Virus record (IMG/VR): IMGVR_UViG_3300022902_000006
Strand: one strand, 5' to 3'
Source of the DNA: a virus
DNA length: 64,000 nt
Both the position numbers and the translations under genes were made by a program. This document shows positions 2,196 through 61,735 of the stretch, one piece after another (position 1 is the stretch's first letter; every line of letters starts with the position of its first letter). The notes under the pieces were generated by a model. It ran no database searches. It saw nothing but the letters and a program-made list of their open reading frames with translations, and had not been told where the DNA came from.

Positions 2196-2208
2196 TTTAC
2201 CCCGTAAA
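2196..2208. repeat. TTTAC-N3-GTAAA palindrome
   Basis: TTTACCCCGTAAA, intergenic. Confidence 0.8.
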
Positions 2209-2211
2209 GCA

Positions 2212-2502
2212 CTAGACGGGCCGAGCGACTGGGGCACCTCCGCCACCTACCACTTGGCACCGAAACTCAACGTACCGCACCTTCCGCTCACCCAAGAAGA
2301 ACTCAACAACAAGGCCCCCCGCATACTCACCGGGAGTGAGGGGGTTCTCCTTGAATGCGTAGAGGTCCCGCACCACTACCTTGTCATAACGACTGTGGCC
2401 CGGGACCGGGTACTCACCAAGCCCGAGCTTGGTGTAGTAGTGCGCAGTGCGCATGAGCACCGGGGTGAGTCCGATGCCGCGCAGCGTGGTGTCCTTACCC
2501 AC
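2212..2502 (-). CDS. Hypothetical protein (probable GTG start at 2502)
   Basis: Start overlaps the stop of the upstream gene at 2495; globular composition. Confidence 0.5.
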   Translation of the reverse strand: MGKDTTLRGIGLTPVLMRTAHYYTKLGLGEYPVPGHSRYDKVVVRDLYAFKENPLTPGEYAGGLVVEFFLGERKVRYVEFRCQVVGGGGAPVARPV

Positions 2503-3313
2503 CGACGTCGACCCGCTTGAGGAGCTGAATGACCTTGGTCTGCCGCTCGTTGGGCTTGAAGGTTCCGTCCACGATGCTATCTGCGATGGCACGGAGCTGC
2601 TTGTACACGCGGTCCCGGCGCGGTTCCATCATGTAGTATTGCATGGACGTGAAGTTGGCCACACGACTGTTGATGTACGACTCGTGGATCGTCCTATACC
2701 GGAGGTAGTAGGTGTACAGGTTGATGGCGTACGCCTCCATCTCCCAGTGAGTACGCCAGGGGTCAGGGAGCTGCGGAATGAAGCACACCGCACCGAGGAC
2801 AACCCAGAGGGGAATCCAGATAGCGAGGTGCCACCCAGAGGCCCAAAGCACCGGGAGCCAGCACGTAAGGATGAGGAGCCCGCCCAGGGAAAGCGGGAAG
2901 AGGTACAGGAAGGAAAACAGTACCGGGGTCCACTTCTTGGCCTGCAGCACATGCATGATTTCGTGGAGGAGAATCCACCAGGCGTCCAGGCCCAGCGCCT
3001 TGCCGCTCTTGTACAACCCATGCTTCAACAGGAACGCAGTGTCTGAAGTATGAGCGATGCCTGCTTTGGCGTCACCATCAGGCCCAGCGATGGACTTCCA
3101 GATCGTGGTCCAGAAGCGCTTGACGTAGGAGTCGTCTTGGGCCACGGGGTACACGAGGTTCAGTAACCAGTTGATGGCCGCGTGATACCAGAAGTCGCTC
3201 TTGACTCCGATGCGGAAACCAGCAGGGACCAACTGTGTGGTCACCGCCAGCAGCACGAGACGCTGGAACTTTGTAACGTTGGACATCTTGACAACCTCAT
3301 TGGTCGTGGACAT
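2495..3313 (-). CDS. Membrane-associated zincin metallopeptidase-like protein
   Basis: HExxH motif (LLHEIMHVLQ), hydrophobic hairpin, downstream WEMEAY third-ligand motif. Confidence 0.6.
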   Translation of the reverse strand: MSTTNEVVKMSNVTKFQRLVLLAVTTQLVPAGFRIGVKSDFWYHAAINWLLNLVYPVAQDDSYVKRFWTTIWKSIAGPDGDAKAGIAHTSDTAFLLKHGLYKSGKALGLDAWWILLHEIMHVLQAKKWTPVLFSFLYLFPLSLGGLLILTCWLPVLWASGWHLAIWIPLWVVLGAVCFIPQLPDPWRTHWEMEAYAINLYTYYLRYRTIHESYINSRVANFTSMQYYMMEPRRDRVYKQLRAIADSIVDGTFKPNERQTKVIQLLKRVDVGG

Positions 3314-3516
3314 CAGGCCACCTCCAAGGTGAACGTCTGGTAGTGCGTGACATTGGCGCCGTCGCGCACCACTGTGATGGACATCTTCGCGGACGCTTTC
3401 ACACAGGCGTCGCAGGTGACGGACACGATGGTGTCCTGGTACTTCAGGACGAGACAGTCCCGTGTGTTGGTGGTGATCTCCTCACCACACCCGCTGCACT
3501 TACCGTCGTACTCCAT
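3313..3516 (-). CDS. Small zinc-finger protein
   Basis: ATG at 3516 directly after the RNR stop; CSGC and CDAC pairs. Confidence 0.6.
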   Translation of the reverse strand: MEYDGKCSGCGEEITTNTRDCLVLKYQDTIVSVTCDACVKASAKMSITVVRDGANVTHYQTFTLEVA

Positions 3517-3517
3517 A

Positions 3518-6166: not shown

Positions 6167-6179
6167 ACCTATACGGCTC

Positions 6180-6740: not shown

Positions 6741-6810
6741 TGTATCCAAGTCCCTAAATGCATTAGTATTTGTACACAGACTGGTCCCAAACGCAAGAGG
6801 AGCCCCCCTC

Positions 6811-9036: not shown

Positions 9037-10617
9037 TCAAGGGCTGAAGTACATCCCTCGTGTCACCATCAGTGCACTGTCCTCTTCGTCCGTTATGTTC
9101 ATGAAGGGAAAACCCCTCCAATCCTTCAGGTAGCGAAAGAGATCGTCGAAGTCATAGATCCGGTGCTCGTCAGTCTCTTTCGTGGTCATCACAACAATTT
9201 CCACCGGCCCCGTATCGTGCCTCGACATCTCAACATGGTGCATTTCAGGTTGGCACACAGCGAAGCCACTCTTGTAGCTACACGTGTATGGCCTTCCGTG
9301 TATTAACGACGAGACGCACAACCACAGCGCGAACTTCGAGTGCACCAACAGATCTTTGGTTGCCGGTGCTTGTGCCCACTCTGCATCCAACCTCCGCTGC
9401 ATGTCAGCGGGGAGCCACGCATACAGTCGCCGGTAGCTGGAAAACTTCAGTGCGTCCTCGTGGTACGCAGACACGCTGTCGCGGCGCACGTAGGCATTCA
9501 GAGGGAGTATCCCATCACCGTACAGCGACGCGGGGTTGCGCACTTGACTCAGCGTCCACCAGCACTGCCTGTTCGTCTCGGGATTTTGCTTTTTGAAAGA
9601 CACCCCAGCGACCTGTGCAAAGCACCATATCTGGCGCAGCGTCCATGAGGTGTGACACCTCTTCAAGATACCTTGCACGGTGCTCATTATGTAACGGGTA
9701 GCGTGTTCATCAGTCCAACGCTTATGCTTACATCCGCGCGACGCCCAGGGGGTACAGGGGGACCCAAATACGCCAGGTTTAACGACATACGCACTAAAGA
9801 TGCAGTTACTGCATTCCTCCCGATGCATCTTTCGGGTTTCTGCCGCGCTGACCGCATTGGCACTGCGCGCTGCCCACGCTTCGTCAACACCAGTAAAGTC
9901 CGCGTGTACAGGCGTGATGAGACCCTTACCCGGCATATCGTGGTCCGGGGTAATGTACTTGGGAGGGATTGCAGTGTACCCAGCGATCTTTGTCTTCCAG
10001 TACCGAACGTCTTCACGCCATTCATCCGCGTCCAGTTCGGAATCGGTGTCTGAGAAATCAGTGCTGATGGGGACTGTAAACAACTCACGCTGAGCCGGAA
10101 CTGCGATGGTGCGGATGTATTTACGCTGTAAATTGTTGTTGAAGCACTCTGACGTTGACCGGATGGGGCACCCTTCACAGGCAGCAACAGCGTACAACTG
10201 CCTACAGTATTGCCGTATGTCGTCCCCTGCGGGGACACACCACACAAAGTCTTTGCGAGCAAAATACATCGCAGCAATACGTAACTGGAGTACGTACGCC
10301 ATGCTCGACCCAACAAACAGCTTGGTCACTTCAAGAGAGTCTTCGGATTCGGCGTTACCGTATCCGGCGCGACGTGCTCCGAATGTCGCACACGTGTACG
10401 CGAAGACCCCATCGGGAAAGTACTTGGTGATGTCTGGATGACGCATCACTCGCGTTATCTCCGTTTCAGACCAGACTGCGTCTTCTCGGTGAAACACGAG
10501 ACCGACCCCTATCCCTTCATGGGGGCGATGGTGTCTTGCGTATCGGGGTGGTCTATCGGTGCACAGCGTAACCATGAGAGGGGGTATGGGCCTCGACTTC
10601 AGGATGCTATCAGGCAT
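9037..10617 (-). CDS. Unknown Cys-rich 526-aa protein coupled to the RT (candidate retron effector/partner)
   Basis: Likely ATG at 10617 overlaps the RT stop (ATGCCTGA). CEGC and CSNC pairs; no family recognised. Confidence 0.6.
   Translation of the reverse strand: MPDSILKSRPIPPLMVTLCTDRPPRYARHHRPHEGIGVGLVFHREDAVWSETEITRVMRHPDITKYFPDGVFAYTCATFGARRAGYGNAESEDSLEVTKLFVGSSMAYVLQLRIAAMYFARKDFVWCVPAGDDIRQYCRQLYAVAACEGCPIRSTSECFNNNLQRKYIRTIAVPAQRELFTVPISTDFSDTDSELDADEWREDVRYWKTKIAGYTAIPPKYITPDHDMPGKGLITPVHADFTGVDEAWAARSANAVSAAETRKMHREECSNCIFSAYVVKPGVFGSPCTPWASRGCKHKRWTDEHATRYIMSTVQGILKRCHTSWTLRQIWCFAQVAGVSFKKQNPETNRQCWWTLSQVRNPASLYGDGILPLNAYVRRDSVSAYHEDALKFSSYRRLYAWLPADMQRRLDAEWAQAPATKDLLVHSKFALWLCVSSLIHGRPYTCSYKSGFAVCQPEMHHVEMSRHDTGPVEIVVMTTKETDEHRIYDFDDLFRYLKDWRGFPFMNITDEEDSALMVTRGMYFSP
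10120..10132. repeat. TTTAC-N3-GTAAA palindrome
   Basis: TTTACGCTGTAAA. Confidence 0.8.
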
Positions 10618-13733: not shown

Positions 13734-14744
13734 GTGAGAGACCAATTCCACGACCCAGCACACGCACACCTCTACGCCCTCCTCGAAGGGCAAGAAGAAG
13801 TAAAGACATTTGCAAAGCACGCCGAGCTGGATGTCGCAAAGGCTGAAACGCTGCCCGCCGGTGCCTTCGCGTGGCCGTCCAAACGCATGTATCCGGTGAA
13901 CACCCCGGAGAACACGGTGCTTTCTGTGATGTACCGTGACAAGTCCGCGTCTGCGGTCCCCCCGGAAGTCGACGCAGCGCTGAGCACCGCCTGCGAGATT
14001 TACGGCGTAAATGACCTACTCAGTCGTGCCCGTGTCGTGGGTGCTGCTCGCCACCAGGAGAAGATCGCCTCAGTGCAAGACGACGCGGTGTGGATCCTCC
14101 CGGGCCTAAAACGCCTCCGGGTCAAGACCGCCTCCGACCTTCAGCAGGCCGAGACACTCCTGCTCAAGCAGTACAACAAGCTGGCCCTGAATGACCGCGT
14201 GGAAGGTTTTGTCAATCTCGTGAAGACTGCACGGGACTTGGGCGTGACCCTGCACCCCCTGACCCACCGCATGGCGGGCATGACAGTGTGCACCGCAGAG
14301 AAGACCGCTGAACTCATCGAGGGACGGCGCTGCGCCGTGAAGGACCCCCTATTCAAGCAGGCGTACTCCCGGCTGGGTGGTGCGTTCCGTGAGAGGGGCG
14401 GCATCATCAGGGACCGTGAGGAACTCGTCAAGGCCGCATCTGCGCTGGCGACCATCGACAGCAACGCAGGCATCGCCCACCAGTATGGCACCACCATTCC
14501 CGACCCCATGCTCACTGTCTTCAGCGAGAAGCAGGCCGAGGACGTGGTGAACCTGGATGGTTCCGAAATCCCACTGACCACACTGCTCGGCCTCCCCGTG
14601 ACATTCTGGGAAGACCTCCTGGGGCCTGAGATCAGTGCAGAGATTGCACCTGATGGCGCCGTGGACCCACAAAAGCTGCAAGAGGTGCTCCCCACGCTGC
14701 CCCTGGACCTCCGCATCGCCTTGAAAGCCCAGCTCCCCTCGTAA
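13734..14744 (+). CDS. Putative head/virion protein with K-x-A motifs
   Basis: SD GGGAG before GTG 13734. EKIA, VKTA, EKTA and EKQA motifs like those in the head-gene cluster. Confidence 0.55.
   Translation: MRDQFHDPAHAHLYALLEGQEEVKTFAKHAELDVAKAETLPAGAFAWPSKRMYPVNTPENTVLSVMYRDKSASAVPPEVDAALSTACEIYGVNDLLSRARVVGAARHQEKIASVQDDAVWILPGLKRLRVKTASDLQQAETLLLKQYNKLALNDRVEGFVNLVKTARDLGVTLHPLTHRMAGMTVCTAEKTAELIEGRRCAVKDPLFKQAYSRLGGAFRERGGIIRDREELVKAASALATIDSNAGIAHQYGTTIPDPMLTVFSEKQAEDVVNLDGSEIPLTTLLGLPVTFWEDLLGPEISAEIAPDGAVDPQKLQEVLPTLPLDLRIALKAQLPS
13999..14011. repeat. TTTAC-N3-GTAAA palindrome
   Basis: TTTACGGCGTAAA. Confidence 0.85.
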
Positions 14745-17253: not shown

Positions 17254-18801
17254 GTGCAATTTCCTCCACGACTGCGCTCTGAACTAGCGCAGAAATTACT
17301 GTACCTGGACGGGGAGCCCTTCACGCTCCAGGACTATCCGTTCTTCCGTGCCGTGTACGACGGGAACTTTTCTGAGGTCCTCCTCAAATGTGCACGACAG
17401 GTAGCTAAGACCACCACTCTCTGCAACTTCATCATTAGCGAGAGTCTCGGCATCCCCCACTTCAAAAGCCTTTACCTCTCCCCGAGTCAGGAACAAACGC
17501 AGTCGTTTTCCAATACCCGTCTCGGGAAGGTGGTGCACTACTCCCCCATCGTGCGTAGATACTTCTCAGTCTCCGACTTCACGCACCGCACCATGCTTCG
17601 TATGTTTCGTAACGGATCCGAGGTGAAGCTCACCTACGCCACTGATAACCCCGATCGTGCACGCGGCAACTCGGCTGACCGGGTGCTGTACGATGAGGTA
17701 CAGGACATCCTCTACCGCGAGGTCATCCCTGTTGTGAATGAGTGCATGGCGAACTCGTCATACCAGTGTGAGATATACGCGGGCACACCCAAGACGATGG
17801 AAAACACCATCGAATACCTGTGGAGCCTCTCCACGCAGTCGGAGTGGATCATACAGTGCACAGGGTGTGGCAAGCACCAATTCATTGAGGGGGTGCGCTC
17901 GCTAGGAAAACACGGACCCATCTGTTTGCACTGTGGAAAAGGGCTCAACCCGCGCCTGGGCCAGTGGTACGACTTCAATAAAGAATCGACCATGAAAGGC
18001 TTCCACGTCTCCCAGCCCATGCTCCCACTGAACTGCGAGAACCCTCATCGCTGGGGCAAGCTGCTGACCAAGGTAGAGCGTTATCCTGAATCACGCCTCA
18101 AGAATGAGGTGTTCGGTGTCTCCGACGCAATCGGCGCACGCCTGATTAGCAAAGACGAACTGGAGAGTCTGTGTGAAAACTACGACATCTTCCGCACACC
18201 ACCCCCTACAGCCCAGGAACAATTCTCCCATGTTGTAGCGGGGGTCGACTGGTCCGGCGGCGGTGTAACAGGGGTCAGCCGCACTGTCCTTTGGATCTTC
18301 GGCGTTACCAAGGACCACCGACTCAAGACCCTCTACTTTCGGATTTACCCCGTAACCAGCCCGGTCACCATCGTGGACGACATGGTAGAGGTGATGAACA
18401 ACTACCAGGTGGAGCGCGTTGTAGGCGACCGGGGAGAGGGGCACCTGGGCAACGACCAGCTCCGACACAAGATGGGGAAACACCGTGTTACCGAGGTACA
18501 GTACGGAGCACAAGCGAGCGCCATCTCGTGGAACGACTTGGGCAGCTTCTACACCGTGGACCGCACCATTGTAATGGACAATTACTTCATGGTACTGAAG
18601 AGGGGGGCTGTTGTGTACCCCAACCTCTCATACATGACAGTGCCCATCCAAGACATCCTGAACCTCTACGAAGAGGTCACAAAGGTGGGCCGCAAGGTGT
18701 GGCGACACGCGCCTACACAACCTGACGACTCCTACCACGCACAGCTATTCGCCTGGCTTGCTGCAAAGATGATTCTGATGGACCTGTCGTTCAACGGATA
18801 A
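17254..18801 (+). CDS. terL: Terminase large subunit
   Basis: KCARQVAKTT (Walker A), RGNSADRVLYDEVQD (Walker B), AGTPKT, CxxC zinc pairs, nuclease motifs AGVDWS and PDDSYHA. Confidence 0.88.
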   Translation: MQFPPRLRSELAQKLLYLDGEPFTLQDYPFFRAVYDGNFSEVLLKCARQVAKTTTLCNFIISESLGIPHFKSLYLSPSQEQTQSFSNTRLGKVVHYSPIVRRYFSVSDFTHRTMLRMFRNGSEVKLTYATDNPDRARGNSADRVLYDEVQDILYREVIPVVNECMANSSYQCEIYAGTPKTMENTIEYLWSLSTQSEWIIQCTGCGKHQFIEGVRSLGKHGPICLHCGKGLNPRLGQWYDFNKESTMKGFHVSQPMLPLNCENPHRWGKLLTKVERYPESRLKNEVFGVSDAIGARLISKDELESLCENYDIFRTPPPTAQEQFSHVVAGVDWSGGGVTGVSRTVLWIFGVTKDHRLKTLYFRIYPVTSPVTIVDDMVEVMNNYQVERVVGDRGEGHLGNDQLRHKMGKHRVTEVQYGAQASAISWNDLGSFYTVDRTIVMDNYFMVLKRGAVVYPNLSYMTVPIQDILNLYEEVTKVGRKVWRHAPTQPDDSYHAQLFAWLAAKMILMDLSFNG

Positions 18802-31467: not shown

Positions 31468-31480
31468 TTTACGGCGTAAA
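31468..31480. repeat. TTTAC-N3-GTAAA palindrome
   Basis: TTTACGGCGTAAA, intergenic, 44 nt upstream of the HTH gene. Confidence 0.85.
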
Positions 31481-43800: not shown

Positions 43801-45472
43801 GTCTACCGACACCAACTACTCCGCTCGTGGCATAGATAGTTACGACGTAAATCAGCAGCCATCCAAGGGTGGATCCGACGGTGCCAAGGCTCTGGGGCGC
43901 ATGGAGATGAACGCCCTGTTGAGCCACAACGCTCGCAACGTGGTCAAGGAATCCGCCACTGTCAAGAGCAGCCACAACGACGAGTTCTGGCGCGCGTACC
44001 AGCTCGGACAACCCCTCCCTGCTCTCCAGGAGCCGTTCGTCGCAAAGAAGTTCACTGCTATGCTGCAGGGGGCAGGCATCCGTGTGGACAAGGGAGATGA
44101 ACAAGTAACTCTCGGGCCGCTGACCGACCCTGACATCACACGCCTCTCGTCGGGCCGCGTCGAAAAGCCCACCATGCTGCGCGAGCGTGACCTCGCACCC
44201 GAGAAGGGGGGCTTGTTTGACCCCGTCGTAACTGGGGGTTCTCAAGGGGAACGCTGGTCTCACATCAACCTATCCGAACCCATCGTCAACCCCTCCTTCG
44301 CTGACCCTGTACGTCGGATGTTGGGAATGACGGTCAAGCAGTATCGCGCCACGATTGGTACGGAGGGCGGGCGTGGCATCCAGTCCCGTCTCGCAGGTCT
44401 CAACATGCGCCAGCGAGAACAGGACCTCATCGCTACCACGCGCACTGCGACAGGAGCCAACCTCGACAACGCAGTGAAGCAGCTCAAGGCTGTGCGTGCC
44501 CTACGCAAAGAAGGGCTCACCCCCGACAAAGCCTACGTCTTGTCCAAGGTTCCCGTGGTGCCCCCGACCGTGCGCCCCATCCTCCCCTCACGCGGTGGGC
44601 GTGACATGCTCATCGCTGACGCCAACTACCTGTACCGCGACACCATGTTGGCGAACGACGCTCTCCGCGACGCCAAGAAGGTACTTCCTGATGAAGCCAT
44701 CGGTGACGCCCGCCGCCACCTACACGATGCGGTGGGTGCGACCTTCGGCCTCAACGACCCCGTGAGCCCATCCATCAAGGCCAGGGGCGCGAAGGGCTTC
44801 ATTACCACCATCGCCGGACAGGGGAGCCCGAAGCGAGGCTTCTTCCACTCTCGTGTCATGTACCGCCCCCAGGACTTGTCGGGACGCGGGACCGTTGCTC
44901 CAGACCTCACCCTCAACATGGATGAGATCGGTGTGCCAGAAGAGATGCTGTGGACCACCTACGGCCCCCACATCGTCAGACGCCTGGTACAGAATGGGTA
45001 CCCCGCGATGCAGGCCAAGGAGATGATCGAACAACGACACCCTTCTGCCAAGAACGCACTCGATGCAGAAATCAAGGAGCGCCCTGTCTTCGTGAACCGC
45101 GCACCCACGCTACACCGCCACGGCATGATCGGCGCGTACCCCATCCCCGTTCCAGGCAAAACCATCCGTGTGAACCCCTTCATGGAAAAGGGCATGAACA
45201 TGGACTACGACGGCGACACCCTCCAGCTCCATGTCCCGGTGCTGCATGAAGCAGTACAAGAAGTGAAGGGCATGACGCTGTCCAATCTCCTGTTCGGAGA
45301 CCGCACCAAGTCCGACCTGTTGATCTTCCCCCAGCACGAGGCTGTGCTCGGAATCCACATGGGCACGCAGCCGGGGAAGGGTCGCGCCAAGAAGTTCAAG
45401 AGCCCCGGCGAAGCCATCAAGGCGTTCAATAAGGGGGACCTGGACTTGATGGACTCGGTACTGATCGACTAG
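40889..45472 (+). CDS. rpoBC: Multisubunit RNA polymerase, beta fused to the N-terminal half of beta' (catalytic subunit)
   Basis: Beta motifs RTPES, NRVLMGGKMATQALPL, GDKLAGRYGNKG and QQPSKGG...GRMEMNAL. Beta' motifs PVVPPTVRP, NRAPTLHR and active site NMDYDGD. ATG 40889 lies 7 nt after TATACT. Confidence 0.93.
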   Translation: MALTPVLIDANTKRAQIHKRAIEGVQNVFPFVAGDEHTFDVENLNVDERTYSSRQQKDAMMRGRTLQEPLRGDIVIRNKKGKVVDRQKNAVLAQLPFFTPRHTFIVDGNEYSVPHQKRIRPGVYTRVRGNDELEAAFNLGKGENFRVHMNPEKGHLFMQYGSTNIPLYPVLKRLGVPTSQLQRAWGKGVVDVNRDAFAAKDVAAVDKLYARLTPEHRLADAQTTEERIASIRESYEHTSLEPEVTQRTLGKAYDRVTPNVLVDASKKLLDVHRKGIDVDDRDNLAVQTLHGVDDFIRERIELEGRNLTRKVRMKARGSAAPRVAEVVPPSPFTRSVRNFVTTSSLASIGAQINPIEMIDSAMRVTSLGEGGIGSERAVPDEARRLHHTHFGVLDPARTPESFRAGIDLRAALWTSKDEKGRIHTKMHDVRKGKLRDVPVDTLEGSTIAFHGEGKKRYGVSAMRKGELVSVPRSQVDYAVPHANFLYSPATTLVPFIESSQGNRVLMGGKMATQALPLLEREEPYIQAESYNQGRTMEQEMAQLVVPTSPVNGEVAKVDQDYIYIRPNGTKTGSSELELAPIEHAWTAKEGSECCDVCSSSATTRVLWAEGHGYIPACEKHKEEIAESKGDDFSGFKPFPHDKQASGATLVRVPYDTDYPLSSKTRLHNTVTVKKGDKVRTNQHLAESNFTRNGRMALGRNMNVGYLAYYGLNTNDAVVVSETAAQKLTSEHMYKEALALDTDITLNKKKHRMIYGTRWTAAQYDNLDNQGIAKPGATVHPGDPIILALRKAAPSPEQQMLGRLHKTLATPFREQAVTWDHKSPGTIAEVVATGTRILVTVKTNEPASIGDKLAGRYGNKGVISHILPDDVMVQTPDGKPLDILMPPTGVNSRVNPAQVLETALAKVARKTGEPIAVGPSSQNNVTMVRAALKKHGLTDKEVLFNPRTGKHIKGPDGRGVMVGPQYTYKLAKSTDTNYSARGIDSYDVNQQPSKGGSDGAKALGRMEMNALLSHNARNVVKESATVKSSHNDEFWRAYQLGQPLPALQEPFVAKKFTAMLQGAGIRVDKGDEQVTLGPLTDPDITRLSSGRVEKPTMLRERDLAPEKGGLFDPVVTGGSQGERWSHINLSEPIVNPSFADPVRRMLGMTVKQYRATIGTEGGRGIQSRLAGLNMRQREQDLIATTRTATGANLDNAVKQLKAVRALRKEGLTPDKAYVLSKVPVVPPTVRPILPSRGGRDMLIADANYLYRDTMLANDALRDAKKVLPDEAIGDARRHLHDAVGATFGLNDPVSPSIKARGAKGFITTIAGQGSPKRGFFHSRVMYRPQDLSGRGTVAPDLTLNMDEIGVPEEMLWTTYGPHIVRRLVQNGYPAMQAKEMIEQRHPSAKNALDAEIKERPVFVNRAPTLHRHGMIGAYPIPVPGKTIRVNPFMEKGMNMDYDGDTLQLHVPVLHEAVQEVKGMTLSNLLFGDRTKSDLLIFPQHEAVLGIHMGTQPGKGRAKKFKSPGEAIKAFNKGDLDLMDSVLID

Positions 45473-46974: not shown

Positions 46975-48093
46975 ATGGCCAGATATGACGAGCACGTACA
47001 AGAGAAACTGCGTGAGGTCCTAGCGGCCTACGCCCCCGGTATCCCTGCTCGTCGCACCTCCGCACTCCCCACCATCACCCAGAACACCACCAACCGTTGG
47101 GTCATGGCCATCCAGAACCACAAGGCGCAACGCGCCGGTAAGCACCACGACCTGCGCCTCGTTGACCCCGACGCAGGCAAGGCGCACTCCTGGGCCATCC
47201 CCAAGTCACGCATGCCAGCCCCGGGAGAGCGCCTCCTCGCTGTACAAACCCACACGCACACACCGCAATATGCGTTGCACGGCAAAGGGGAAGGCGTAAC
47301 CCTTGCTCGCAAGGAGCCAGTGAGTGTACTGGAGTCGTCTCCCGATAAACTGCGCTTTCAGCTTGAGGATGACGCTGTGAGTGAGTTCCTTTTACGGCGT
47401 AAATCCAAGGACAAGTGGCTCCTCATGAACACGACGAAGACGAGCGCCGTGCTCGGCCAGACCCACGCACTTCGCAGCCTGGGGCTCCTAGAAAAGGACG
47501 CCGCCTGGGGCGCAGCAGCAATGAAGGGGCTGGGCGCTGCGTGGAACTGGGGCAGTAAGATGTTGGGACGCGTTGGAGGTGGAGGAGCATCCAAGAGCAC
47601 CGCACTCGTCCCCCGCACTCCCGGTATGCCCCCTATGCCAGGACCAGCAGGTCCAGGACTAGGACAGAGATTTATGTCCTGGGCAGGGGCCAGTCCCGTG
47701 AATGCCTACGCCGCACAGGGTGGTATGGGCGCAGGCATCGGTGGCGTTGCTGGTGCTGCGTCCGCAGACCCCGGTAACCGCATGGGTGGGTTCATGCGCG
47801 GAGCAGTAGGAGGTGCTGCGCTGGGCCTGGGAGGCGCGCACTTCGGAGGCAAGGCAGGACTAAACTACGCGGCGGGCAAGGGATTCAACCTGAACCAAAC
47901 GCAGGGTGCCGTCGGTGCCATGGGGCTCGGTGGGCTCAGCGCAGGTGGACTCGCCGGGGGCATCGCCGGGGGTGCAGGTTTCGGAGGTGCGCCGCCACCA
48001 CCCGCTCCACCCATGAACCCAACGAACCGTAGCCCGTGGGGTGGGCAACAAAACGCCGGTGGTATGAGTGGCACGTTTCCTGGCAAGCCCTGA
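46975..48093 (+). CDS. LigD 3'-phosphoesterase-like domain fused to a Gly-rich hydrophobic region
   Basis: IQNHKA...HHDLRL...SWAIPK...LLAVQTHTH...Y matches the LigD PE pattern. Confidence 0.7.
   Translation: MARYDEHVQEKLREVLAAYAPGIPARRTSALPTITQNTTNRWVMAIQNHKAQRAGKHHDLRLVDPDAGKAHSWAIPKSRMPAPGERLLAVQTHTHTPQYALHGKGEGVTLARKEPVSVLESSPDKLRFQLEDDAVSEFLLRRKSKDKWLLMNTTKTSAVLGQTHALRSLGLLEKDAAWGAAAMKGLGAAWNWGSKMLGRVGGGGASKSTALVPRTPGMPPMPGPAGPGLGQRFMSWAGASPVNAYAAQGGMGAGIGGVAGAASADPGNRMGGFMRGAVGGAALGLGGAHFGGKAGLNYAAGKGFNLNQTQGAVGAMGLGGLSAGGLAGGIAGGAGFGGAPPPPAPPMNPTNRSPWGGQQNAGGMSGTFPGKP
47391..47403. repeat. TTTAC-N3-GTAAA palindrome
   Basis: TTTACGGCGTAAA. Confidence 0.85.
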
Positions 48094-49148: not shown

Positions 49149-50942
49149 TTGGCGCAGCAACGCACATCTGTCGGGCGTCTCCTGCTCAACGATGTCCTCC
49201 CTGAGCCTTATCAGCTACCCGAGGACGTTACGAAGAAGGTCCTCAATGCCACCATGGCTGACTTCGCGAGGACAGACCCCCAACGCTACGTCCAGGCCAT
49301 CGGGGACCTCAAAAGAATAGGGGACCAGGTTGCTACCGACATGGGGCTCACCGTAGGGCTGGATGATATCGAACCAGACTACGCCCGCCGTGACCGTGTT
49401 CTTGAGCCCGCTCTGCGCAGAGTCAAGGCACTGAGCGACCCTACTGCCAAGCGGCGCCTCATCATCAGTACCCAGGATAAGATGTTTGAAATGGCCCCCC
49501 AGCACCCTGGTCAGATGGCCATCGTTGCCACGAGTGGTGCACGGGGCAACGCGGGACAGCTCATGCGCACCGTCACATCCCCAACGGGAGTGACTGACGC
49601 ACAGGGTGCAGTGATCCCGTGGATGATTAGTAAGAGCTTCTCGGAGGGGTTGAAGCCTGCTGACACATGGATCGCCATGGCGGAAGCCAGGCGTAACGTG
49701 GTCGAATCCAACATCGCTGTCTCTGGCCCCGGTGAGATGAGCAAGATCCTGGTCAGTAATATGAGTGACCAGCTCGTCACGGTGCCTGACTGCGGAACAA
49801 CGAATGGGGTTTCATTCGCACATACCGACCCTCACATCGTTGGACGCTACGCTGCCAGCGGAGGGTTTCTGAGCGCCCACCACGTGTCTGGTTTACGGCG
49901 TAAAGAGCCCAAGGGGAGCATCATCGTACGATCCCCTATGACCTGTGAAGCGCCGAACGGCGTCTGCCAAAAGTGCTACGGACAAACGCCAACAGGTAAA
50001 GACCCCCAGATTGGGTACAACGTAGGAATGATCGCAGCCCAGGCTATGGGGGAGCCACTAACCCAGATGGCGCTGAGCGCAAAGCACGCAACGCGTACTG
50101 CCAAATCGCAACGTGCAGTCCTCCAGGGGTTGAGTGGCCTGAAGCAGCTCACCGAGATGCCACAGAGCTTTTTCAACCGCGCCACCTTGGCTCAAGAGCC
50201 GGGACGCGTAACCGCTGTCCGCGAAGCACCTCAAGGTGGACACTACGTCAACGTCAACGAACAAGAGCACTACGTACCCCCAAACCTGGACGTAACCGTC
50301 AAGCCTGGTCAGCGCATCGAACAAGGAGACGCGCTATCCGACGGCATCCCCAAACCCGATGAAGTGGTGCAGCACAAAGGTCTCGGAGCAGGGCGGCGCT
50401 ACATGGTGGACCAGCTCCACCAGATCTACACGCGTAATGGTCTCGACCTGGATAAGAGGCACCTGGAGCTGCTCGCCAAGACCGACCTGAACTACGTCAA
50501 GGTGTTGGACGCTGACAGCCCAGAACTGGGTGTAGCTCGCGGAGAAGTTGTGGATTACAACCGCTTCCGCGCAGCCGTCGCAAAGAAAGCGAAGAGGCGC
50601 CCCACCGCCCAAGCCCAGGGACAGTTCCTTGGAGACAACGTCCTGCATTACACCGCAGGCACCGAAGTTACCCCCAGTGTAATGGCAGACTTGGAGCGCA
50701 GTGGGGTGAAAAACGTACCCACACTCCCCCACGTACCCCAGCACGAACTCATCCTCAAGCCTATCAGCCGTACTCCCCTGTTACACTCGGACTGGTTGGC
50801 GCGGTTAGGCCACCGCAATTTGAAAGCATCCATCTTGGATGGCGCAACCTTTGGTGAATCATCTAATATACACGGCACGCATCCAGTCCCAGCGTTTGTC
50901 TTTGGCGAAACACTGGGGCGCGGGCCGCAAGGACGATACTAA
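49149..50942 (+). CDS. rpoC: RNA polymerase beta' C-terminal half
   Basis: SGARGN, SFSEGL, DCGT, VRSPMTC...CQKCYG, and trigger-loop region AAQAMGEPLTQMAL. Confidence 0.9.
   Translation: MAQQRTSVGRLLLNDVLPEPYQLPEDVTKKVLNATMADFARTDPQRYVQAIGDLKRIGDQVATDMGLTVGLDDIEPDYARRDRVLEPALRRVKALSDPTAKRRLIISTQDKMFEMAPQHPGQMAIVATSGARGNAGQLMRTVTSPTGVTDAQGAVIPWMISKSFSEGLKPADTWIAMAEARRNVVESNIAVSGPGEMSKILVSNMSDQLVTVPDCGTTNGVSFAHTDPHIVGRYAASGGFLSAHHVSGLRRKEPKGSIIVRSPMTCEAPNGVCQKCYGQTPTGKDPQIGYNVGMIAAQAMGEPLTQMALSAKHATRTAKSQRAVLQGLSGLKQLTEMPQSFFNRATLAQEPGRVTAVREAPQGGHYVNVNEQEHYVPPNLDVTVKPGQRIEQGDALSDGIPKPDEVVQHKGLGAGRRYMVDQLHQIYTRNGLDLDKRHLELLAKTDLNYVKVLDADSPELGVARGEVVDYNRFRAAVAKKAKRRPTAQAQGQFLGDNVLHYTAGTEVTPSVMADLERSGVKNVPTLPHVPQHELILKPISRTPLLHSDWLARLGHRNLKASILDGATFGESSNIHGTHPVPAFVFGETLGRGPQGRY
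49892..49904. repeat. TTTAC-N3-GTAAA palindrome
   Basis: TTTACGGCGTAAA. Confidence 0.85.
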
Positions 50943-52522: not shown

Positions 52523-52768
52523 ATGGCTTTCGATTTCACAGACGACATCTTCAAACTCGCCGAAGTCCTGATTGAGGACCAGCTCGCCTCTCGCGCTGAG
52601 CAACCCCAAGCACAAGGGCAAGAACCAGCCGACCTGGGTGTCCCCACTCAGGGCCGATCCGTCCTCAATTTACTGGGTAAAACGACCGCCACCACGACCG
52701 AACCCGCCCCGAAGATTCTGCACGTGGACTCGGGCAAGCGACAAGTGTCCACGCCGACGAACGAATGA
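52523..52768 (+). CDS. Small hypothetical protein
   Basis: 81-aa ORF coupled (ATGA) to the next gene. Confidence 0.5.
   Translation: MAFDFTDDIFKLAEVLIEDQLASRAEQPQAQGQEPADLGVPTQGRSVLNLLGKTTATTTEPAPKILHVDSGKRQVSTPTNE
52669..52681. repeat. TTTAC-N3-GTAAA palindrome
   Basis: TTTACTGGGTAAA. Confidence 0.8.
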
Positions 52769-55970: not shown

Positions 55971-56695
55971 TGGACGTATTCGACCCCCGAAACCTGGACC
56001 CGCACCACCGCATCAACGACGCGGTGCGGTACGCAGAGTCTCCCGACGAGGACATCCCCAATGACCTCGACAACCAGACGCTTGCGCTCATCTACGGTTT
56101 ACGCGGTAAACCACCCACGGTTGATCTGTACCACGCACTGCGTAAATACCAGAACCCCTTCTCCAGAAACGTCCTGACAGGATTCCTACTCGCGGAAGCG
56201 AAGGAAGAACTGATCACCAAAACCACGGGCATGGCTGCAGGGGTGCTCACTGCCTACGTCACCTACATCTTTGATAACTCCATTTTCTCCGACAAGATGG
56301 ACCGCTTCAGCTATGCACACGCGGTACGCAACTTCGTATCTGCGGAACACGCTGCATTCCTGGAGGCGGCTGTAACCCACGGCCCAGAGTACCTCGTATG
56401 GATGCTCAATGGAGACCCCAGCCACACCCCCAAGGACATCATGGCCTCCGTCATGGTAGACGCGCTGTATCGTGGTCGCGCACACCGTAACGCGGCCATC
56501 ACGTCACCCGCTGCAAAGGAAGCTCGCGCCTGGTTGTCCCTGGCGGGGTCTACCGCGACCAACGCGCATAGGCTAGACCCGAGTGGTGACGCAGACGACG
56601 CCCTGCGCGACCTTAAATTAGCGCTGTCCTACGAGGACGAAACCACCAACGAAGAAACCCCCGGGGCACCTGCGCCCGGTGATATACTGCATTAG
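55970..56695 (+). CDS. Hypothetical protein
   Basis: TAATG coupling to the upstream gene. Confidence 0.6.
   Translation: MDVFDPRNLDPHHRINDAVRYAESPDEDIPNDLDNQTLALIYGLRGKPPTVDLYHALRKYQNPFSRNVLTGFLLAEAKEELITKTTGMAAGVLTAYVTYIFDNSIFSDKMDRFSYAHAVRNFVSAEHAAFLEAAVTHGPEYLVWMLNGDPSHTPKDIMASVMVDALYRGRAHRNAAITSPAAKEARAWLSLAGSTATNAHRLDPSGDADDALRDLKLALSYEDETTNEETPGAPAPGDILH
56098..56110. repeat. TTTAC-N3-GTAAA palindrome
   Basis: TTTACGCGGTAAA. Confidence 0.85.
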
Positions 56696-56704
56696 GAGCG
56701 CACC

Positions 56705-58884: not shown

Positions 58885-58895
58885 AGGACCGCGCC

Positions 58896-59120
58896 ATGAC
58901 AAATCTATTCAAAGCCCTGCAACCCCGCGTTCGAAGCAACCTTCGCGGGAATATGCACAAGGTCGCCGCAGTGATGGCGCGCGGCGAGGGTATCCCCCTC
59001 ACGCGAGACGAAGTCACCATCAAGGAAGCGGCACTCATCCTCGGCATCAAGTTCCACCGGCAATACCTCGAAAAAGCGGCCATGCTCGACGGCCTGATGT
59101 GCCTCAAACGCCTGGGATAA
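58896..59120 (+). CDS. Small putative head protein
   Basis: HKVA and EKAA motifs; SD AAGGA. Confidence 0.5.
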   Translation: MTNLFKALQPRVRSNLRGNMHKVAAVMARGEGIPLTRDEVTIKEAALILGIKFHRQYLEKAAMLDGLMCLKRLG

Positions 59121-59123
59121 GTC

Positions 59124-59774
59124 ATGACCCCCGAAGAAGCGTACCACCAGTTAATGGCAAAACTCTCCGCGTGCTCTGCACAGGAGAAGACTGCCTCCGT
59201 GACCCCCACGGATGCCGCCCTGCTCCAGAAAACTGCAGCGGATGTGGACGCGTTCGAGACTTTCATGAAAATCGCCTTGTCCTGGCGCGGTGTGAAGGAT
59301 GTTGCCCGTATCGCAGTACCAACTGCGATAGGTGCAGGTGGGGTCGCAACGGGTGGTGTTTACCTGGCGGGCCAGAACCTCATCAACAACGCAGACGCCA
59401 AAGCAAAGGCGCGCATTGAGGAGATGCGTGCGAAAGCATCCAAGGTTGCACTTGGTGCAACTGTAGCGGGGGCCACGCTGCTCGGCCTGCACCACTACCT
59501 CTCCAAGGACCGAGAACGGGCGCTGCTCCCTGGACGCCGCCCTGCACCACGCCGCCGCCCTGCACCACGCCGCCTCGCACCGATGATGCCCACTTACAGG
59601 GGCTACGCATCGAAGTTCGGCTCCGCATTCAACCCAGCAGAAGCCGAGACCCTCGAAAAGATAGGGACGGTTGTGTACCTGGAAGTGATGCTGCAAAAAA
59701 CAGCACACAGTGATACACTGCGTCTACTCAACGCAGAACACGGATCATCACTACTCCAAGAGCTACTGCCGTGA
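59124..59774 (+). CDS. Putative head protein with RRPAP repeats
   Basis: EKTA and QKTA motifs; 18-nt coding repeat near 59535-59580. Confidence 0.55.
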   Translation: MTPEEAYHQLMAKLSACSAQEKTASVTPTDAALLQKTAADVDAFETFMKIALSWRGVKDVARIAVPTAIGAGGVATGGVYLAGQNLINNADAKAKARIEEMRAKASKVALGATVAGATLLGLHHYLSKDRERALLPGRRPAPRRRPAPRRLAPMMPTYRGYASKFGSAFNPAEAETLEKIGTVVYLEVMLQKTAHSDTLRLLNAEHGSSLLQELLP

Positions 59775-61735
59775 CCCACGACCCCACTGACCGCCTCAAG
59801 ATAATCAACCTGGGTGAACGTTTTGAACACACAGGTGAGCCCACTGTACAGCCAGTGGTGCTCTGGGGTTTACGCGGTAAACCATGCTTCGAAAAAGTGT
59901 CCGCAGAGCTTCAGGGGAGCCCCGCCCTGGAGTACGCACGCAGCATCGAACCCGTACCCGGGAAAACGATATCCCTGATCATCGGGCTGGGTAGTTTTGA
60001 ATTTTACGGCCTGAACCGCAACGGTGATGGGTTCAACGAACAACCCTACCGCGTCGGGCAGCAGCCAACCTGCGGGTGCTGTACTGATAAGACGCGCACC
60101 GCGTGGATTGAGGAAGCTGAGTGCACCACCCACCACTACCAGAGCTACGAAAACGGTGCGGTGTTTCGCCACCACGTCAATAAGGACCGGAAGAAGGCTG
60201 TTGGGCACATCCTCAAAGCGTTCTGGAATCCCATCATGCACCGTGTCGAGGTCATCGAAGACCTGAACAACGCCAAGGCTCCCGACCTCGCAACACGGAT
60301 AGGGGACGGGGAATTCCCTGCCAAGAGCATGGGGTGCCGCATCAAGTTCGATGTCTGCACCAAGTGTGGCCATCGCGCCCCAACCAGGAAACAATACTGC
60401 GACCACCTCAAGTGGGAAATGGGACACCTGGACCAAGCGACAGGTATTCGCTACGGCGCCCTCAACCCTGCCCCCAACTTCTTCGACAGTTCCTGGGTTT
60501 TCCGCCCCGCTGACCGCACAGGTTGGATGCTCAAAAAAGTCGCAGAACACGCGTACGAACTACAGGGCTCCAGTATCCTGGGCGAGCGTGTCGAAGACCT
60601 GAATCACAAAGCTGCGGCTGCGCAGAAGCTGGCCGTCATCGACAAAATCGTACAGGGGTACCCCGCCGCTGCATTCCCCGATGACGCCGACGCACCCCTC
60701 ATCGAGCGCTTCTGCCAGACAACGCTACCCACCATGGTAGAGAACACCGAAGAACTAACCACGGAAGATATGTCGCAGTTGAACCCAACTGACGACATCG
60801 CTGACGTACTCGCGTCTTTGGCTGAAGAAGGCATCACCCTCACTACCCCTGAATTCATTCGTCTGTTCGTATCACGCATGGCACCAGGTGTTGAAGTTCC
60901 TCCCGCCATCATGCCATACGCAGTTATCCTACAGTCGGAGTTGTTCGACCTTCTACGGCAACACCCCTCTCTGGTTGAAGAGGTGGTTACTCCTCTGACC
61001 AAGGAAAAACCACAACGCATCAAAATCCCAGAACCCATTCTGGAGAAGCGCTCATTCATCGGTGAATATCTACAACGCCGCCTGGCACCCACCATGCTGC
61101 AAGGCAACGCCGCTCCTACCACCGACCTCCTGCACGTACTCCCTTCACAGGGTCAAGACGGCTTCAAAACCACGCGAGGCGCTGCACAAGGAACACAGGA
61201 TGCCATCGCAGAAGCGAAGCTCAAGCAGGGTGTAGTCGCGGGCCTCCTGAGCAGCGTTGGCCTGGGCGTAGCTGGTCTCGTAGCCAAGAAAGCCCCTGGT
61301 GCACAAAAGTGGCTCGCTCTGGCCCCACTCGCAGGTGGGCTGGGCCTCGGGGGATACTACGGGGCAGAGGCCCTGCGCCCTGTGAAAATGAGGCGCACTA
61401 CAGAAGGTGGTCTGATCCCCGCACGAACCCCCATGAAAGAGTATCCACGCGCCGATGTTGAAGAGAGCGCACTCATGGAAGCAACGAAACGAAGTGGTTT
61501 GAGCCACCGCGTAAAGTCTGGGTCTGTCATTGCGCACTTGCGCAAGTACAGCGCAGCACAGCACCCCATGGCGCTGTTTGTTACAAAGCACGCCAGTCAC
61601 GGCGCCCAGTGCTCACACCTGTCTCTCGCAGCCATCGCACACGCACTCGAAAAGCGCGCATCTGCGGGCATATTTGAAGAGCCAATTGACCTAGACAAAG
61701 TAGCCGATTTGGTCGGATGCCTCATATGGGCGTAA
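59771..61735 (+). CDS. Probable prohead (capsid maturation) protease with C-terminal extension
   Basis: RNGDGF, FRHHVN (candidate His), KSMGC (candidate Ser), CTKCG...YCDH, FFDSSWV.RPAD, then KKVA. Positioned before scaffold-like genes. Confidence 0.7.
   Translation: MTHDPTDRLKIINLGERFEHTGEPTVQPVVLWGLRGKPCFEKVSAELQGSPALEYARSIEPVPGKTISLIIGLGSFEFYGLNRNGDGFNEQPYRVGQQPTCGCCTDKTRTAWIEEAECTTHHYQSYENGAVFRHHVNKDRKKAVGHILKAFWNPIMHRVEVIEDLNNAKAPDLATRIGDGEFPAKSMGCRIKFDVCTKCGHRAPTRKQYCDHLKWEMGHLDQATGIRYGALNPAPNFFDSSWVFRPADRTGWMLKKVAEHAYELQGSSILGERVEDLNHKAAAAQKLAVIDKIVQGYPAAAFPDDADAPLIERFCQTTLPTMVENTEELTTEDMSQLNPTDDIADVLASLAEEGITLTTPEFIRLFVSRMAPGVEVPPAIMPYAVILQSELFDLLRQHPSLVEEVVTPLTKEKPQRIKIPEPILEKRSFIGEYLQRRLAPTMLQGNAAPTTDLLHVLPSQGQDGFKTTRGAAQGTQDAIAEAKLKQGVVAGLLSSVGLGVAGLVAKKAPGAQKWLALAPLAGGLGLGGYYGAEALRPVKMRRTTEGGLIPARTPMKEYPRADVEESALMEATKRSGLSHRVKSGSVIAHLRKYSAAQHPMALFVTKHASHGAQCSHLSLAAIAHALEKRASAGIFEEPIDLDKVADLVGCLIWA
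59869..59881. repeat. TTTAC-N3-GTAAA palindrome
   Basis: TTTACGCGGTAAA. Confidence 0.85.

What the first reader, a model, noticed from the sequence alone, without database searches (positions are those of the whole stretch)
2196..59881. Dispersed 13-bp palindrome TTTAC-N3-GTAAA, a KorB-operator-like site grid
Seen: at least 13 exact copies (2196, 10120, 13999, 21882, 27108, 31468, 35696, 36858, 47391, 49892, 52669, 56098, 59869) plus one-mismatch copies at 18344 and 43839. Most are inside genes, read as different peptides (e.g. LRGK, LRRK, YGVN, YAVK), have a GC-rich centre, and are spaced mostly 3-5 kb apart. Ten fixed bases in 64 kb give <0.1 expected copies by chance. Known: the IncP plasmid ParB-family protein KorB binds TTTAGC(G/C)GCTAAA, a 13-bp palindrome present about 12 times across the ~60-kb RK2 plasmid; MatP matS sites also have a 5-3-5 layout. 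Inference: these are loading sites for the phage ParB CTPase clamp, used for genome organisation, segregation or long-range gene silencing.
Basis: partly seen in the sequence, partly recalled or inferred. Interest (0 to 1): 0.85.

Follow-up and report, generated by a model that had tools for sequence, protein, structure and literature searches.

The report
Evenly spaced ParB-type sites across phage genome
A 13-letter DNA palindrome is written at strikingly even intervals, even inside genes, along a 180-kb uncultured phage genome and its relatives. It is most likely the docking site of the phage's own partner-less ParB DNA clamp, which would mean a virus coating its whole genome with a protein best known for segregating bacterial chromosomes.

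Summary
The window holds 13 exact TTTAC-N3-GTAAA sites (0.01 expected), and the complete 180,179-bp phage record holds 28. Only the 3-bp spacer occurs.

- **Spacing:** sites are more evenly spaced than chance in all seven genomes tested (P from 0.046 to below 5e-5).
- **Placement:** sites favour intergenic DNA but are also built into long genes with rare codons (16 genic sites against 0.24 in synonymous-codon shuffles).
- **Conservation:** the motif is kept across a deep clade of about 180-kb uncultured phages with their own multisubunit RNA polymerase.
- **Sister lineage:** it carries TTCAC-N3-GTGAA instead, 18 sites every 2.9 kb. These are canonical parS half-sites split by 3 bp.
- **Losses:** at least four lineages lost the grid. 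In three of them the recognition helix of the syntenic ParB is clearly changed.
- **Rivals:** the neighbouring sigma-like protein does not track the motif, and no gene's presence or absence does.
- **The candidate binder:** ParB has intact CTP-binding boxes and a ParB/Noc fold, but no ParA and no ParA-binding motif.

Best reading (about 0.6): genome-wide loading sites for an orphan ParB-CTP clamp, working like KorB-OB or Noc-NBS. Binding is not shown, and the downstream role is unknown. I found no published description. This scan has noted similar site sets in other phages.

The parts
2196..2208 (.). site TTTACCCCGTAAA, between convergent genes, directly after a TGA stop
10120..10132 (.). site TTTACGCTGTAAA, inside a 469-aa gene (minus strand)
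13999..14011 (.). site TTTACGGCGTAAA, inside a 336-aa gene (plus strand)
18344..18356 (.). near-site TTTACCCCGTAAC (mismatch at the outermost base), which fills a gap in the grid
21882..21894 (.). site TTTACGGCGTAAA, inside the DNA polymerase A gene (20117-23026, minus strand)
27108..27120 (.). site TTTACCGCGTAAA, inside a PD-(D/E)XK nuclease gene (26664-27467, minus strand)
29480..30427 (-). orphan parB gene (315 aa). It has ParB_N and HTH_ParB domains, GERRWRAA and ENAGR boxes, and the recognition helix GYISQRLSLLDLP. After a Lys/Gly/Arg-rich linker comes a helical C-terminal domain. This is the proposed binder of the sites.
31468..31480 (.). site TTTACGGCGTAAA, intergenic, at the head of the small-gene operon that ends in parB
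35696..35708 (.). site TTTACGACGTAAA, inside the SNF2 helicase gene (34742-36625, minus strand)
36858..36870 (.). site TTTACGCGGTAAA in the divergent region between the SNF2 helicase gene and the conserved 572-aa portal-like gene. The ORF called here scores poorly. This is the most widely conserved position in the clade.
43839..43851 (.). near-site GTTACGACGTAAA (mismatch at the outermost base), inside the large RNAP beta-like gene, which fills the 10.5-kb gap
47391..47403 (.). site TTTACGGCGTAAA, inside a 372-aa gene
49892..49904 (.). site TTTACGGCGTAAA, inside an RNAP beta-like subunit gene (49149-50942)
52669..52681 (.). site TTTACTGGGTAAA, inside an 81-aa gene
56098..56110 (.). site TTTACGCGGTAAA, inside a 241-aa gene
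59869..59881 (.). site TTTACGCGGTAAA, near the start of a 654-aa gene. The same relative position holds a site in the G001 orthologue.

Best explanation
The palindromes are the cognate DNA sites of the phage's own orphan ParB.

**Proposed mechanism.** A ParB dimer recognises the two TTTAC half-sites through its helix-turn-helix domains. By analogy with ParB, Noc and KorB, it then binds CTP, closes into a clamp and slides off the site, and further dimers load. Sites lie every 3-9 kb, on the scale of ParB spreading, so the whole phage genome would be covered evenly.

**Likely purpose.** This is not ParA-driven partition. It would serve some genome-wide function, such as marking, compacting or shielding phage DNA, or KorB-like control of promoters. 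A few sites at conserved positions (the SNF2/portal-like divergent region and the parB 3' end) may double as operators.

**Shown:** the motif, its enrichment, its even spacing, DNA-level selection on it, its conservation across the clade, a variant motif in a sister lineage, and the ParB domain make-up.

**Inferred:** that ParB is the binder, that it loads and slides with CTP, and what this achieves.
For: 1. **Enrichment.** 28 sites against about 0.05 expected, with a strict 3-bp spacer.
2. **DNA-level selection.** 16 genic sites against a mean of 0.24 in synonymous-codon shuffles. Eleven of the genome's 89 TTA codons (2.1% of Leu codons) lie in sites.
3. **Even spacing in seven genomes.** CV 0.27-0.69, P from 0.046 to below 5e-5. 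In G000 the near-sites fill the large gaps, giving 36 TTAC-N3-GTAA sites with CV 0.44.
4. **Exact, symmetric arms** in every copy and every genome point to a dimeric double-stranded-DNA binder. As RNA, the bare motif folds at only -0.2 kcal/mol.
5. **ParB features.** ParB_N and HTH_ParB domains, GERRWRAA and ENxxR boxes, and a fold matching CTP/CDP-bound ParB, Noc, the ParB-parS complex and KorB.
6. **The binder looks like a core gene whose specificity changes.**
   - Every clade member has a syntenic ParB.
   - TTTAC genomes have the helix x[YHAFW][IV]SQ[RYH]L..LL plus a downstream Arg.
   - Genomes with the helix SWVSYHYK...QAL, or other helices, have 0-1 sites in up to 190 kb.
   - G038 has a different helix and 18 TTCAC-N3-GTGAA sites with no TTTAC sites.
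   - The portal-like tree needs at least 4 changes of state.
7. **parS half-sites.** G038's half-site TTTCAC(G) equals the parS half-site TGTTTCAC (PMC7383237). The TTTA-N5-TAAA layout equals KorB's OB (PMC11790492).
8. **Site next to parB.** A site lies 0-50 nt after the parB stop in L129, L130, L137, L145, L159 and (with one mismatch) L168.
9. **Rivals that fail.** The adjacent sigma-like protein keeps the same 4.2 helix whether or not the grid is present. No gene's presence or absence tracks the grid.
Against: - No binding data exist. All the evidence is comparative, and the genomes are related, so shared ancestry could mimic covariation.
- G017 and G019 have a ParB helix close to the positive type (SYVSQHL..LL.LP...AR) but only 0 and 1 sites in about 50 kb each.
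- Two unrelated phages with a GWVSQRL helix have no sites. The helix alone therefore does not predict the motif.
- In G000 itself no site is adjacent to parB; the nearest are 1.0 and 2.4 kb away.
- In several sublineages the Glu of GERR is replaced (GSRR, GHRR, GYRR), so CTPase chemistry may differ.
- G005 keeps a similar ParB but has only 5 sites in 156 kb.
Confidence: 0.6

Rival explanations
1. The sites are bound by another dimeric sequence-specific DNA-binding protein of the clade, such as an unrecognised regulator or nucleoid-type protein. ParB would then only correlate with the motif through shared ancestry.
For: Most genes of these phages have no family match, so unrecognised DNA binders are likely. 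The exceptions G017 and G019, and the unrelated phages G006 and G007, show that the ParB helix does not fully predict the motif. All genomes compared belong to one clade.
Against: No gene's presence or absence follows the grid. The one other recognisable HTH protein nearby, the sigma-like protein, does not covary with it. The variant motif consists of parS half-sites, which point specifically to a ParB-type HTH (PMC7383237). A site abuts parB in two clades.
Confidence: 0.2
2. The sites are targets of a phage enzyme, such as a nickase, endonuclease or DNA-modifying enzyme (for example one of the PD-(D/E)XK nucleases next to parB). This would give regularly spaced nicks, breaks or marks for replication, recombination or packaging, as with the nicks of T5-like phages.
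For: Two PD-(D/E)XK nuclease genes and an SNF2 helicase gene sit in the same module as parB. Palindromes with an N3 spacer are typical of dimeric nucleases. Even spacing could suit recombination-dependent replication.
Against: These nucleases are core genes, also kept in genomes without the grid. Cutting a palindrome on both strands would fragment the genome. Ten specified bases are unusual for modification enzymes. I saw no change in these genes that matches the TTTAC-to-TTCAC switch, though I did not examine this residue by residue.
Confidence: 0.08
3. The sites are transcription or RNA signals: promoters or terminators for the phage RNA polymerase or sigma-like factor, or an RNA hairpin.
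For: Sites are strongly enriched between genes (11-12 of 28 in G000, 16 of 23 in G001, 8 of 16 in G004, against 9-13% non-coding DNA). Several sit between a terminator-like hairpin and a ribosome-binding site.
Against: Many sites are deep inside long genes on either strand, and 13 of 18 in G038 are genic at a regular 2.9-kb pitch. Perfect two-fold symmetry is not expected of a promoter. The RNA hairpin is marginal (-0.2 kcal/mol) and has no T-run. The sigma-like 4.2 helix is the same in genomes without the motif. No compensatory arm changes occur; the arms are sequence-invariant.
Confidence: 0.05

Closest known systems
KorB and its OB operators on IncP-1 plasmid RK2 (PMC11790492)
   Same: A ParB-family CTP clamp. 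Its 13-bp palindrome has the same TTTA-N5-TAAA frame (OB core TTTAGCGGCTAAA). Sites are dispersed over the whole replicon at roughly one per 5 kb, at promoters, far from promoters and inside genes. They act as loading sites for sliding clamps.
   Different: The phage protein is closer to chromosomal ParB/Noc (E about 1e-20) than to KorB (1.8e-7) and has no KorB-specific domains. There is no IncC/ParA partner and no recognised KorA/TrbA-like locking protein. The replicon is a 180-kb phage with its own RNA polymerase. The even spacing is statistically supported here. The inner bases differ (AC-SSS-GT against AGC-S-GCT).
Noc and its NBS sites in Bacillus (PMC7383237, PMC8429893)
   Same: A ParA-independent paralogue of ParB that kept the CTP switch, acquired a new palindrome through changes at a few HTH positions, and uses many sites scattered over a genome. 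The phage ParB has S/A-R-D-A where ParB has R-T-A-G and Noc has Q-K-K-R (alignment).
   Different: NBS is a 16-bp even palindrome without a spacer. Noc acts on the host chromosome, with membrane binding. No membrane-targeting helix has been examined here. Here the replicon is viral.
Chromosomal ParB-parS (TGTTTCAC-GTGAAACA)
   Same: The closest sequence and fold relatives. The sister lineage G038 uses the same TTTCAC half-site. A site lies next to parB in several relatives.
   Different: The half-sites are separated by 3 extra base pairs. The sites are spread over the whole genome rather than clustered. There is no ParA and no LG(K/R)GL ParA-activating motif.
17-bp dyad repeats of Cluster O mycobacteriophages (TGTTCGG-N3-CCGAACA, 34 copies in Corndog; PMC4351075)
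   Same: A phage-wide, invariant arm-N3-arm palindrome, partly intergenic and partly genic, not tied to promoters, in a phage that also encodes a ParB-like domain protein. Its function is reported as unknown.
   Different: Different sequence, arm length and phage group. Those repeats are denser towards one genome end rather than even. No link to ParB was proposed there.

Membership tests
ParB/Noc/KorB-type CTP-gated DNA clamp with cognate palindromic sites | N-terminal ParB/Srx nucleotide-binding domain with GxRRxRA and ENxxR boxes | tested here: met
   PF02195 E=5e-15. GERRWRAA and VENAGR are present. G72, R75 and N108 are invariant, and R74 and E107 nearly invariant, in 28 sequences.
ParB/Noc/KorB-type CTP-gated DNA clamp with cognate palindromic sites | Central ParB-type helix-turn-helix DNA-binding domain | tested here: met
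   PF17762 E=2e-11. The model (pLDDT 87) matches the ParB-parS complex 6T1F (TM 0.72 by target), Noc-NBS 6Y93 and KorB 8QA9.
ParB/Noc/KorB-type CTP-gated DNA clamp with cognate palindromic sites | C-terminal dimerisation domain after a flexible linker | tested here: inconclusive
   A disordered Lys/Gly/Arg-rich linker (about 230-253) is followed by three conserved helices (254-308). There is no family or structural match for that part.
ParB/Noc/KorB-type CTP-gated DNA clamp with cognate palindromic sites | Specific binding to the palindrome, with CTP-dependent clamp closure and sliding | not testable with these tools
   Needs purified protein (EMSA or BLI, CTPase assay, cross-linking) or ChIP-seq.
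ParB/Noc/KorB-type CTP-gated DNA clamp with cognate palindromic sites | Site sequence changes together with the protein's recognition helix | tested here: inconclusive
   The TTTAC, TTCAC and no-grid states mostly follow the ParB helix type, with at least 4 changes on the tree. The exceptions are G017 and G019, and shared ancestry is not fully excluded.
ParABS partition system | Partner ParA ATPase and the ParA-activating N-terminal motif (L/F/I)G(K/R)G(L/F/I) | tested here: not met
   No PF13614 or PF01656 match in the complete genome, with controls positive. The motif is absent from the ParB N-terminus (motif as defined in PMC12704722).
ParABS partition system | parS sites clustered at one centromere | tested here: not met
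   28 sites are spread evenly over 180 kb.
KorB (IncP-1) orthologue | KorB-specific DNA-binding and C-terminal domains, with closest similarity to KorB | tested here: not met
   Pfam finds only ParB_N and HTH_ParB. PDB similarity to KorB is E=1.8e-7, against 3e-20 for Spo0J and 1e-19 for Noc.
KorB (IncP-1) orthologue | 13-bp OB-type palindrome dispersed over the replicon | tested here: met
   TTTA-N5-TAAA frame at one site per 4.7-6.4 kb. OB core taken from PMC11790492.
ParB-dependent phage thymine dioxygenase (5mYOX) systems (PMC13229309) | A ParB lacking a DNA-binding domain, paired with a Tet/JBP dioxygenase | tested here: not met
   This ParB has a full HTH domain. No Tet_JBP match was found in the genome, but the control genomes did not ring either, so that part is weak.

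The most novel reading that the evidence does not exclude
A whole lineage of large phages uses a ParA-independent ParB-CTP clamp, loaded from a deliberately even grid of sites, to coat the entire viral chromosome. This would be a virus-encoded 'self-chromatin' that compacts, compartmentalises or shields phage DNA, or silences it globally. The site specificity would be evolving in step with the clamp's recognition helix (TTTAC, TTCAC and possibly other motifs).
Probability: 0.3. Interest if true: 0.85.

Novelty: new variant of a known kind. Interest (0 to 1): 0.72.

Why it matters
ParB-CTP clamps are known from chromosome and plasmid partition, from Noc and from KorB. A role on viral genomes without ParA has not been described in the papers I could search.

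- **Clear predictions.** One protein, one 13-bp site, a natural specificity variant (TTCAC) for swap experiments, and natural loss-of-grid lineages to serve as controls.
- **A function for orphan phage ParBs.** If confirmed, it would give a function to the widespread orphan ParB proteins of phages.
- **Unexplained phage palindromes.** It would explain phage-wide palindromes such as those of Cluster O mycobacteriophages.
- **Site spacing.** It would show that the spacing of sites is itself under selection, which bears on how far ParB clamps travel in vivo.
- **A new tool.** It could yield new orthogonal ParB/site pairs for DNA labelling.

Tried and rejected
- **Sigma-like protein as binder.** This is the gene convergent with parB (window 28647-29483). 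Its region 4.2 helix (SERVRQ[IL]K) is the same in genomes with and without the grid. Rejected.
- **Promoter, terminator or RNA hairpin.** Many sites lie deep inside genes, the motif is perfectly symmetric, and the RNA fold is only -0.2 kcal/mol. Rejected as the main role.
- **Chi-like hotspots.** Isolated half-sites are not enriched (67 outside palindromes against about 100 expected) and the spacer is strict. Rejected.
- **Chance or codon bias.** Dinucleotide and synonymous-codon shuffles rule this out. Rejected.
- **A cofactor gene that follows the grid.** Only one G000 gene (window 52765-53364) is found in both grid-bearing genomes and in none of the four complete grid-less ones, and it recurs in the grid-less G033 and G045, so none tracks the grid.
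- **Replacement palindromes.**
  - None was found in G025, G028, G031, G037, G017, G019, G030 or G033.
  - Different palindromes are enriched in G045 (TACGCGCGTA) and in G042, G043 and G034 (TAGC-N6-GCTA), but they are not evenly spaced.
- **Close relatives.** Single-protein searches of IMG/VR with ParB and DNA polymerase found none, nor did GenBank phages by DNA or ParB protein. Relatives were reached only with alignments.
- **A 186-kb Logan contig carrying a 40%-identical ParB.** It could not be read because its file was too large.
- **ParB-dependent T-dioxygenase system.** The ParB architecture does not fit; the Tet_JBP search was uninformative.
- **Complex prediction.** Not used, because a ParB homodimer would pass by likeness to solved structures.

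Full report
**Observation.**
- TTTAC-N3-GTAAA occurs 13 times in the window, at exactly the coordinates given. Dinucleotide-preserving shuffles give 0.01 copies.
- The two one-mismatch copies at 18344 and 43839 are also real.
- The window is bases 23056-87055 of a 180,179-bp virus record rated complete. About 100 bp at its two ends overlap.
- The whole record has 28 exact copies.
- No spacer from 0 to 7 bp other than 3 occurs, and the reversed half-site order occurs only once, at 5 bp. 28 of the genome's 95 TTTAC pentamers are in the palindrome.
- The central triplet is not fixed, but it is 93% G+C in a 58% G+C genome.
- Ten further copies have one mismatch (1.9 expected). Seven of them differ only at the outermost base, so the core is TTAC-N3-GTAA, with 36 copies.

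**Selection acts on the DNA.**
- By my own codon-usage gene calls (88% coding), 16-17 sites are genic and 11-12 intergenic.
- Frame 0 is impossible because it would create a TAA stop codon.
- Shuffling synonymous codons within genes leaves a mean of 0.24 genic sites (maximum 3), against 16 observed.
- Eleven of the 89 TTA codons in the genome (2.1% of leucine codons) are used to build sites.
- Genic sites tend to lie in long genes: DNA polymerase, SNF2 helicase, an RNA polymerase subunit, and in relatives the primase.

**The grid is even.** The coefficient of variation (CV) of inter-site distances is below random expectation in every genome tested:

| Genome (site set) | CV | P |
|---|---|---|
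| G000, exact sites | 0.64 | 0.006 |
| G000, 36 core sites | 0.44 | <5e-5 |
| G001 | 0.40 | <5e-5 |
| G004 | 0.48 | 0.001 |
| G013 | 0.50 | 0.002 |
| G012 | 0.62 | 0.02 |
| G022 | 0.69 | 0.046 |
| G038 | 0.27 | <1e-4 |

In G000 the near-sites fall inside the largest gaps between exact sites. Spacing itself therefore appears to be selected. That fits an agent with a limited range from each site.

**What the phage is.**
- The window encodes DNA polymerase A, a large primase, two PD-(D/E)XK nucleases, an SNF2 helicase, multisubunit RNA polymerase beta-like proteins and a sigma70 region-4 protein.
- There is no close relative among GenBank phages.
- Alignment-based searches of IMG/VR found a deep clade of about 150 uncultured relatives, many near 180-200 kb, with the same gene order around parB.

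**The motif across the clade.**
- The same motif is enriched in many members whose ParB is only 26-44% identical to this one. Examples are G001 (23 in 198 kb), G002 (16 in 130 kb), G004 (16 in 122 kb, 48% G+C, centre not G+C-rich), G018 (21 in 194 kb), G022 (21 in 179 kb), G012, G013 and G029.
- Some positions are orthologous:
  - the divergent region between the SNF2 helicase and the conserved 572-aa portal-like gene (window site 36858), seen in at least ten records;
  - the region upstream of G000:3414-4136;
  - the start of the 654-aa gene (window site 59869);
  - the same relative position in the primase genes of G001 and G004.
- Other complete relatives have 0 or 1 copy: G025 (190 kb), G031 (183 kb), G028 (170 kb) and G037 (180 kb).

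**The candidate binder.**
- The genome has one ParB (window 29480-30427, minus strand, 315 aa). It has ParB_N and HTH_ParB domains and the GERRWRAA and ENAGR boxes.
- Its best solved relatives are Spo0J, Noc and ParB (E about 1e-20). KorB is much weaker (1.8e-7).
- A model with pLDDT 87 matches CTP/CDP-bound ParB clamps, Noc, the ParB-parS complex and KorB. A disordered basic linker and a small helical C-terminal domain follow.
- No ParA is encoded and the ParA-activating motif is absent, so this is an orphan ParB (PMC12704722).
- At the four positions that switch ParB (RTAG) to Noc (QKKR) specificity (PMC7383237), this protein reads S/A-R-D-A by the alignment. That fits a third specificity.

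**Protein and motif mostly change together.**
- Every clade member has a ParB homologue at the syntenic place.
- Genomes with the TTTAC grid share a recognition helix of the form x[YHAFW][IV]SQ[RYH]L..LL and a downstream Arg.
- A group of at least ten records with the helix SWVSYH[YH]K...QAL has 0-1 sites in up to 190 kb. So do lineages with other helices.
- G038, with the helix AMVSQYLAVFDLD, has no TTTAC site but 18 copies of TTCAC-N3-GTGAA in 51.7 kb. They are spaced every 2.9 kb, and 13 of 18 are inside genes.
- With its flanks this motif reads TTTCACG-N-CGTGAAA. These are the two halves of the canonical parS (TGTTTCAC-GTGAAACA; PMC7383237) moved 3 bp apart.
- Each genome carries only one arm type.
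- A quick maximum-likelihood tree of the portal-like protein places TTTAC genomes in three groups and needs at least four losses or changes. In three of them (type B, type C, L157) the ParB helix is clearly changed; the L128/L131 loss is the exception noted under Caveats, and L160's helix differs from its TTCAC sister L170. The careful tree search did not finish.
- In six relatives from two clades a site lies 0-50 nt after the parB stop codon.

**Controls for rivals.**
- The sigma-like protein convergent with parB has the same 4.2 helix in genomes with and without the grid.
- No G000 gene is both present in grid genomes and absent from all the grid-less ones.
- As RNA, the motif is only a marginal hairpin.

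**Caveats.**
- Nothing shows binding.
- All the genomes are related, so covariation could partly reflect ancestry.
- G017 and G019 have a helix similar to the positive type but lack the grid.
- Two unrelated phages with a GWVSQRL helix have no sites.
- In G000 no site touches parB.
- The Glu of GERR is not conserved in some sublineages.

**Comparison with what is known.**
- The system works like KorB-OB on RK2. It has a 13-bp palindrome in the same TTTA-N5-TAAA frame (OB core TTTAGCGGCTAAA), about one site per 5 kb over the whole replicon, and loading sites for a sliding clamp.
- It also works like Noc-NBS, an orphan ParB paralogue with a re-programmed site scattered over a genome.
- It is not a KorB orthologue and not a ParABS partition system (see the membership tests).
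- Cluster O mycobacteriophages carry 34 copies of TGTTCGG-N3-CCGAACA of unknown function, together with a ParB-like protein (PMC4351075). This is the nearest published phage parallel.
- My paper searches found no description of a phage-wide ParB site grid.
- This scan's own earlier notes describe similar dispersed ParB-type site sets in other phage genomes, and the same motif in overlapping windows of this genome. These are unchecked AI notes, not independent evidence.

**Verdict.** It is clade-wide and evenly spaced, and it has a natural specificity variant. ParB as the binder is the best-supported explanation (about 0.6). The function of coating a viral genome with ParB remains open.

Noticed in passing
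L243-L245 (record G038; also L170): A sister-lineage phage fragment (51.7 kb) carries 18 copies of TTCAC-N3-GTGAA, mostly TTTCACG-N-CGTGAAA, which are parS half-sites split by 3 bp. They lie at a very regular 2.9-kb pitch (CV 0.27), and the fragment has no TTTAC sites. Its sigma-like protein also has an unusual 4.2 helix.
   Followed up: yes
L259-L261 (G043), L253-L255 (G042), L250-L252 (G034): More distant clade members with very divergent ParB (helix like NTIKARLSLL) are enriched in a different palindrome, TAGC-N6-GCTA. It occurs 19, 12 and 7 times against about 0.6-1 expected, often as TAGCT-N4-AGCTA, and is not evenly spaced.
   Followed up: partly
L237-L242 (G045): The 10-bp palindrome TACGCGCGTA occurs 9 times in 117 kb (0.11 expected), all in the first 87 kb. 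This genome has a divergent ParB helix (QAIQQRLALLSAD) and no TTTAC grid.
   Followed up: partly
window 40889-45472 and 49149-50942 (plus strand); 28647-29483 (plus strand): The phage encodes multisubunit RNA polymerase beta/beta'-like proteins, which match jumbo-phage RNAP PHROGs. It also encodes a sigma70 region-4 protein that is a core gene of the whole clade and always lies convergent with parB.
   Followed up: partly
G000 ends (bases 34-63 recur at 180080): The first roughly 100 bases of the record recur at its end. This indicates either a circularly closed assembly or short terminal repeats, and so a complete genome.
   Followed up: no
G000:88900-88960 (window 65845-65905, just beyond the window) and L098/L099 (G001:157899): At an orthologous intergenic spot in two phages the order is: G+C-rich hairpin with a T-run, then the site, then the start codon. 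The site takes the place where a promoter or operator would sit.
   Followed up: partly
window 46975-48093 (plus strand): A 372-aa protein with a weak LigD 3'-phosphoesterase-like N-terminal match (below the Pfam cut-off). It carries site 47391.
   Followed up: no
window 52765-53364 (plus strand): This 199-aa gene of unknown function is the only G000 gene found in both grid-bearing genomes tested and in none of the four complete grid-less genomes. It is, however, present in the grid-less G033 and G045.
   Followed up: partly
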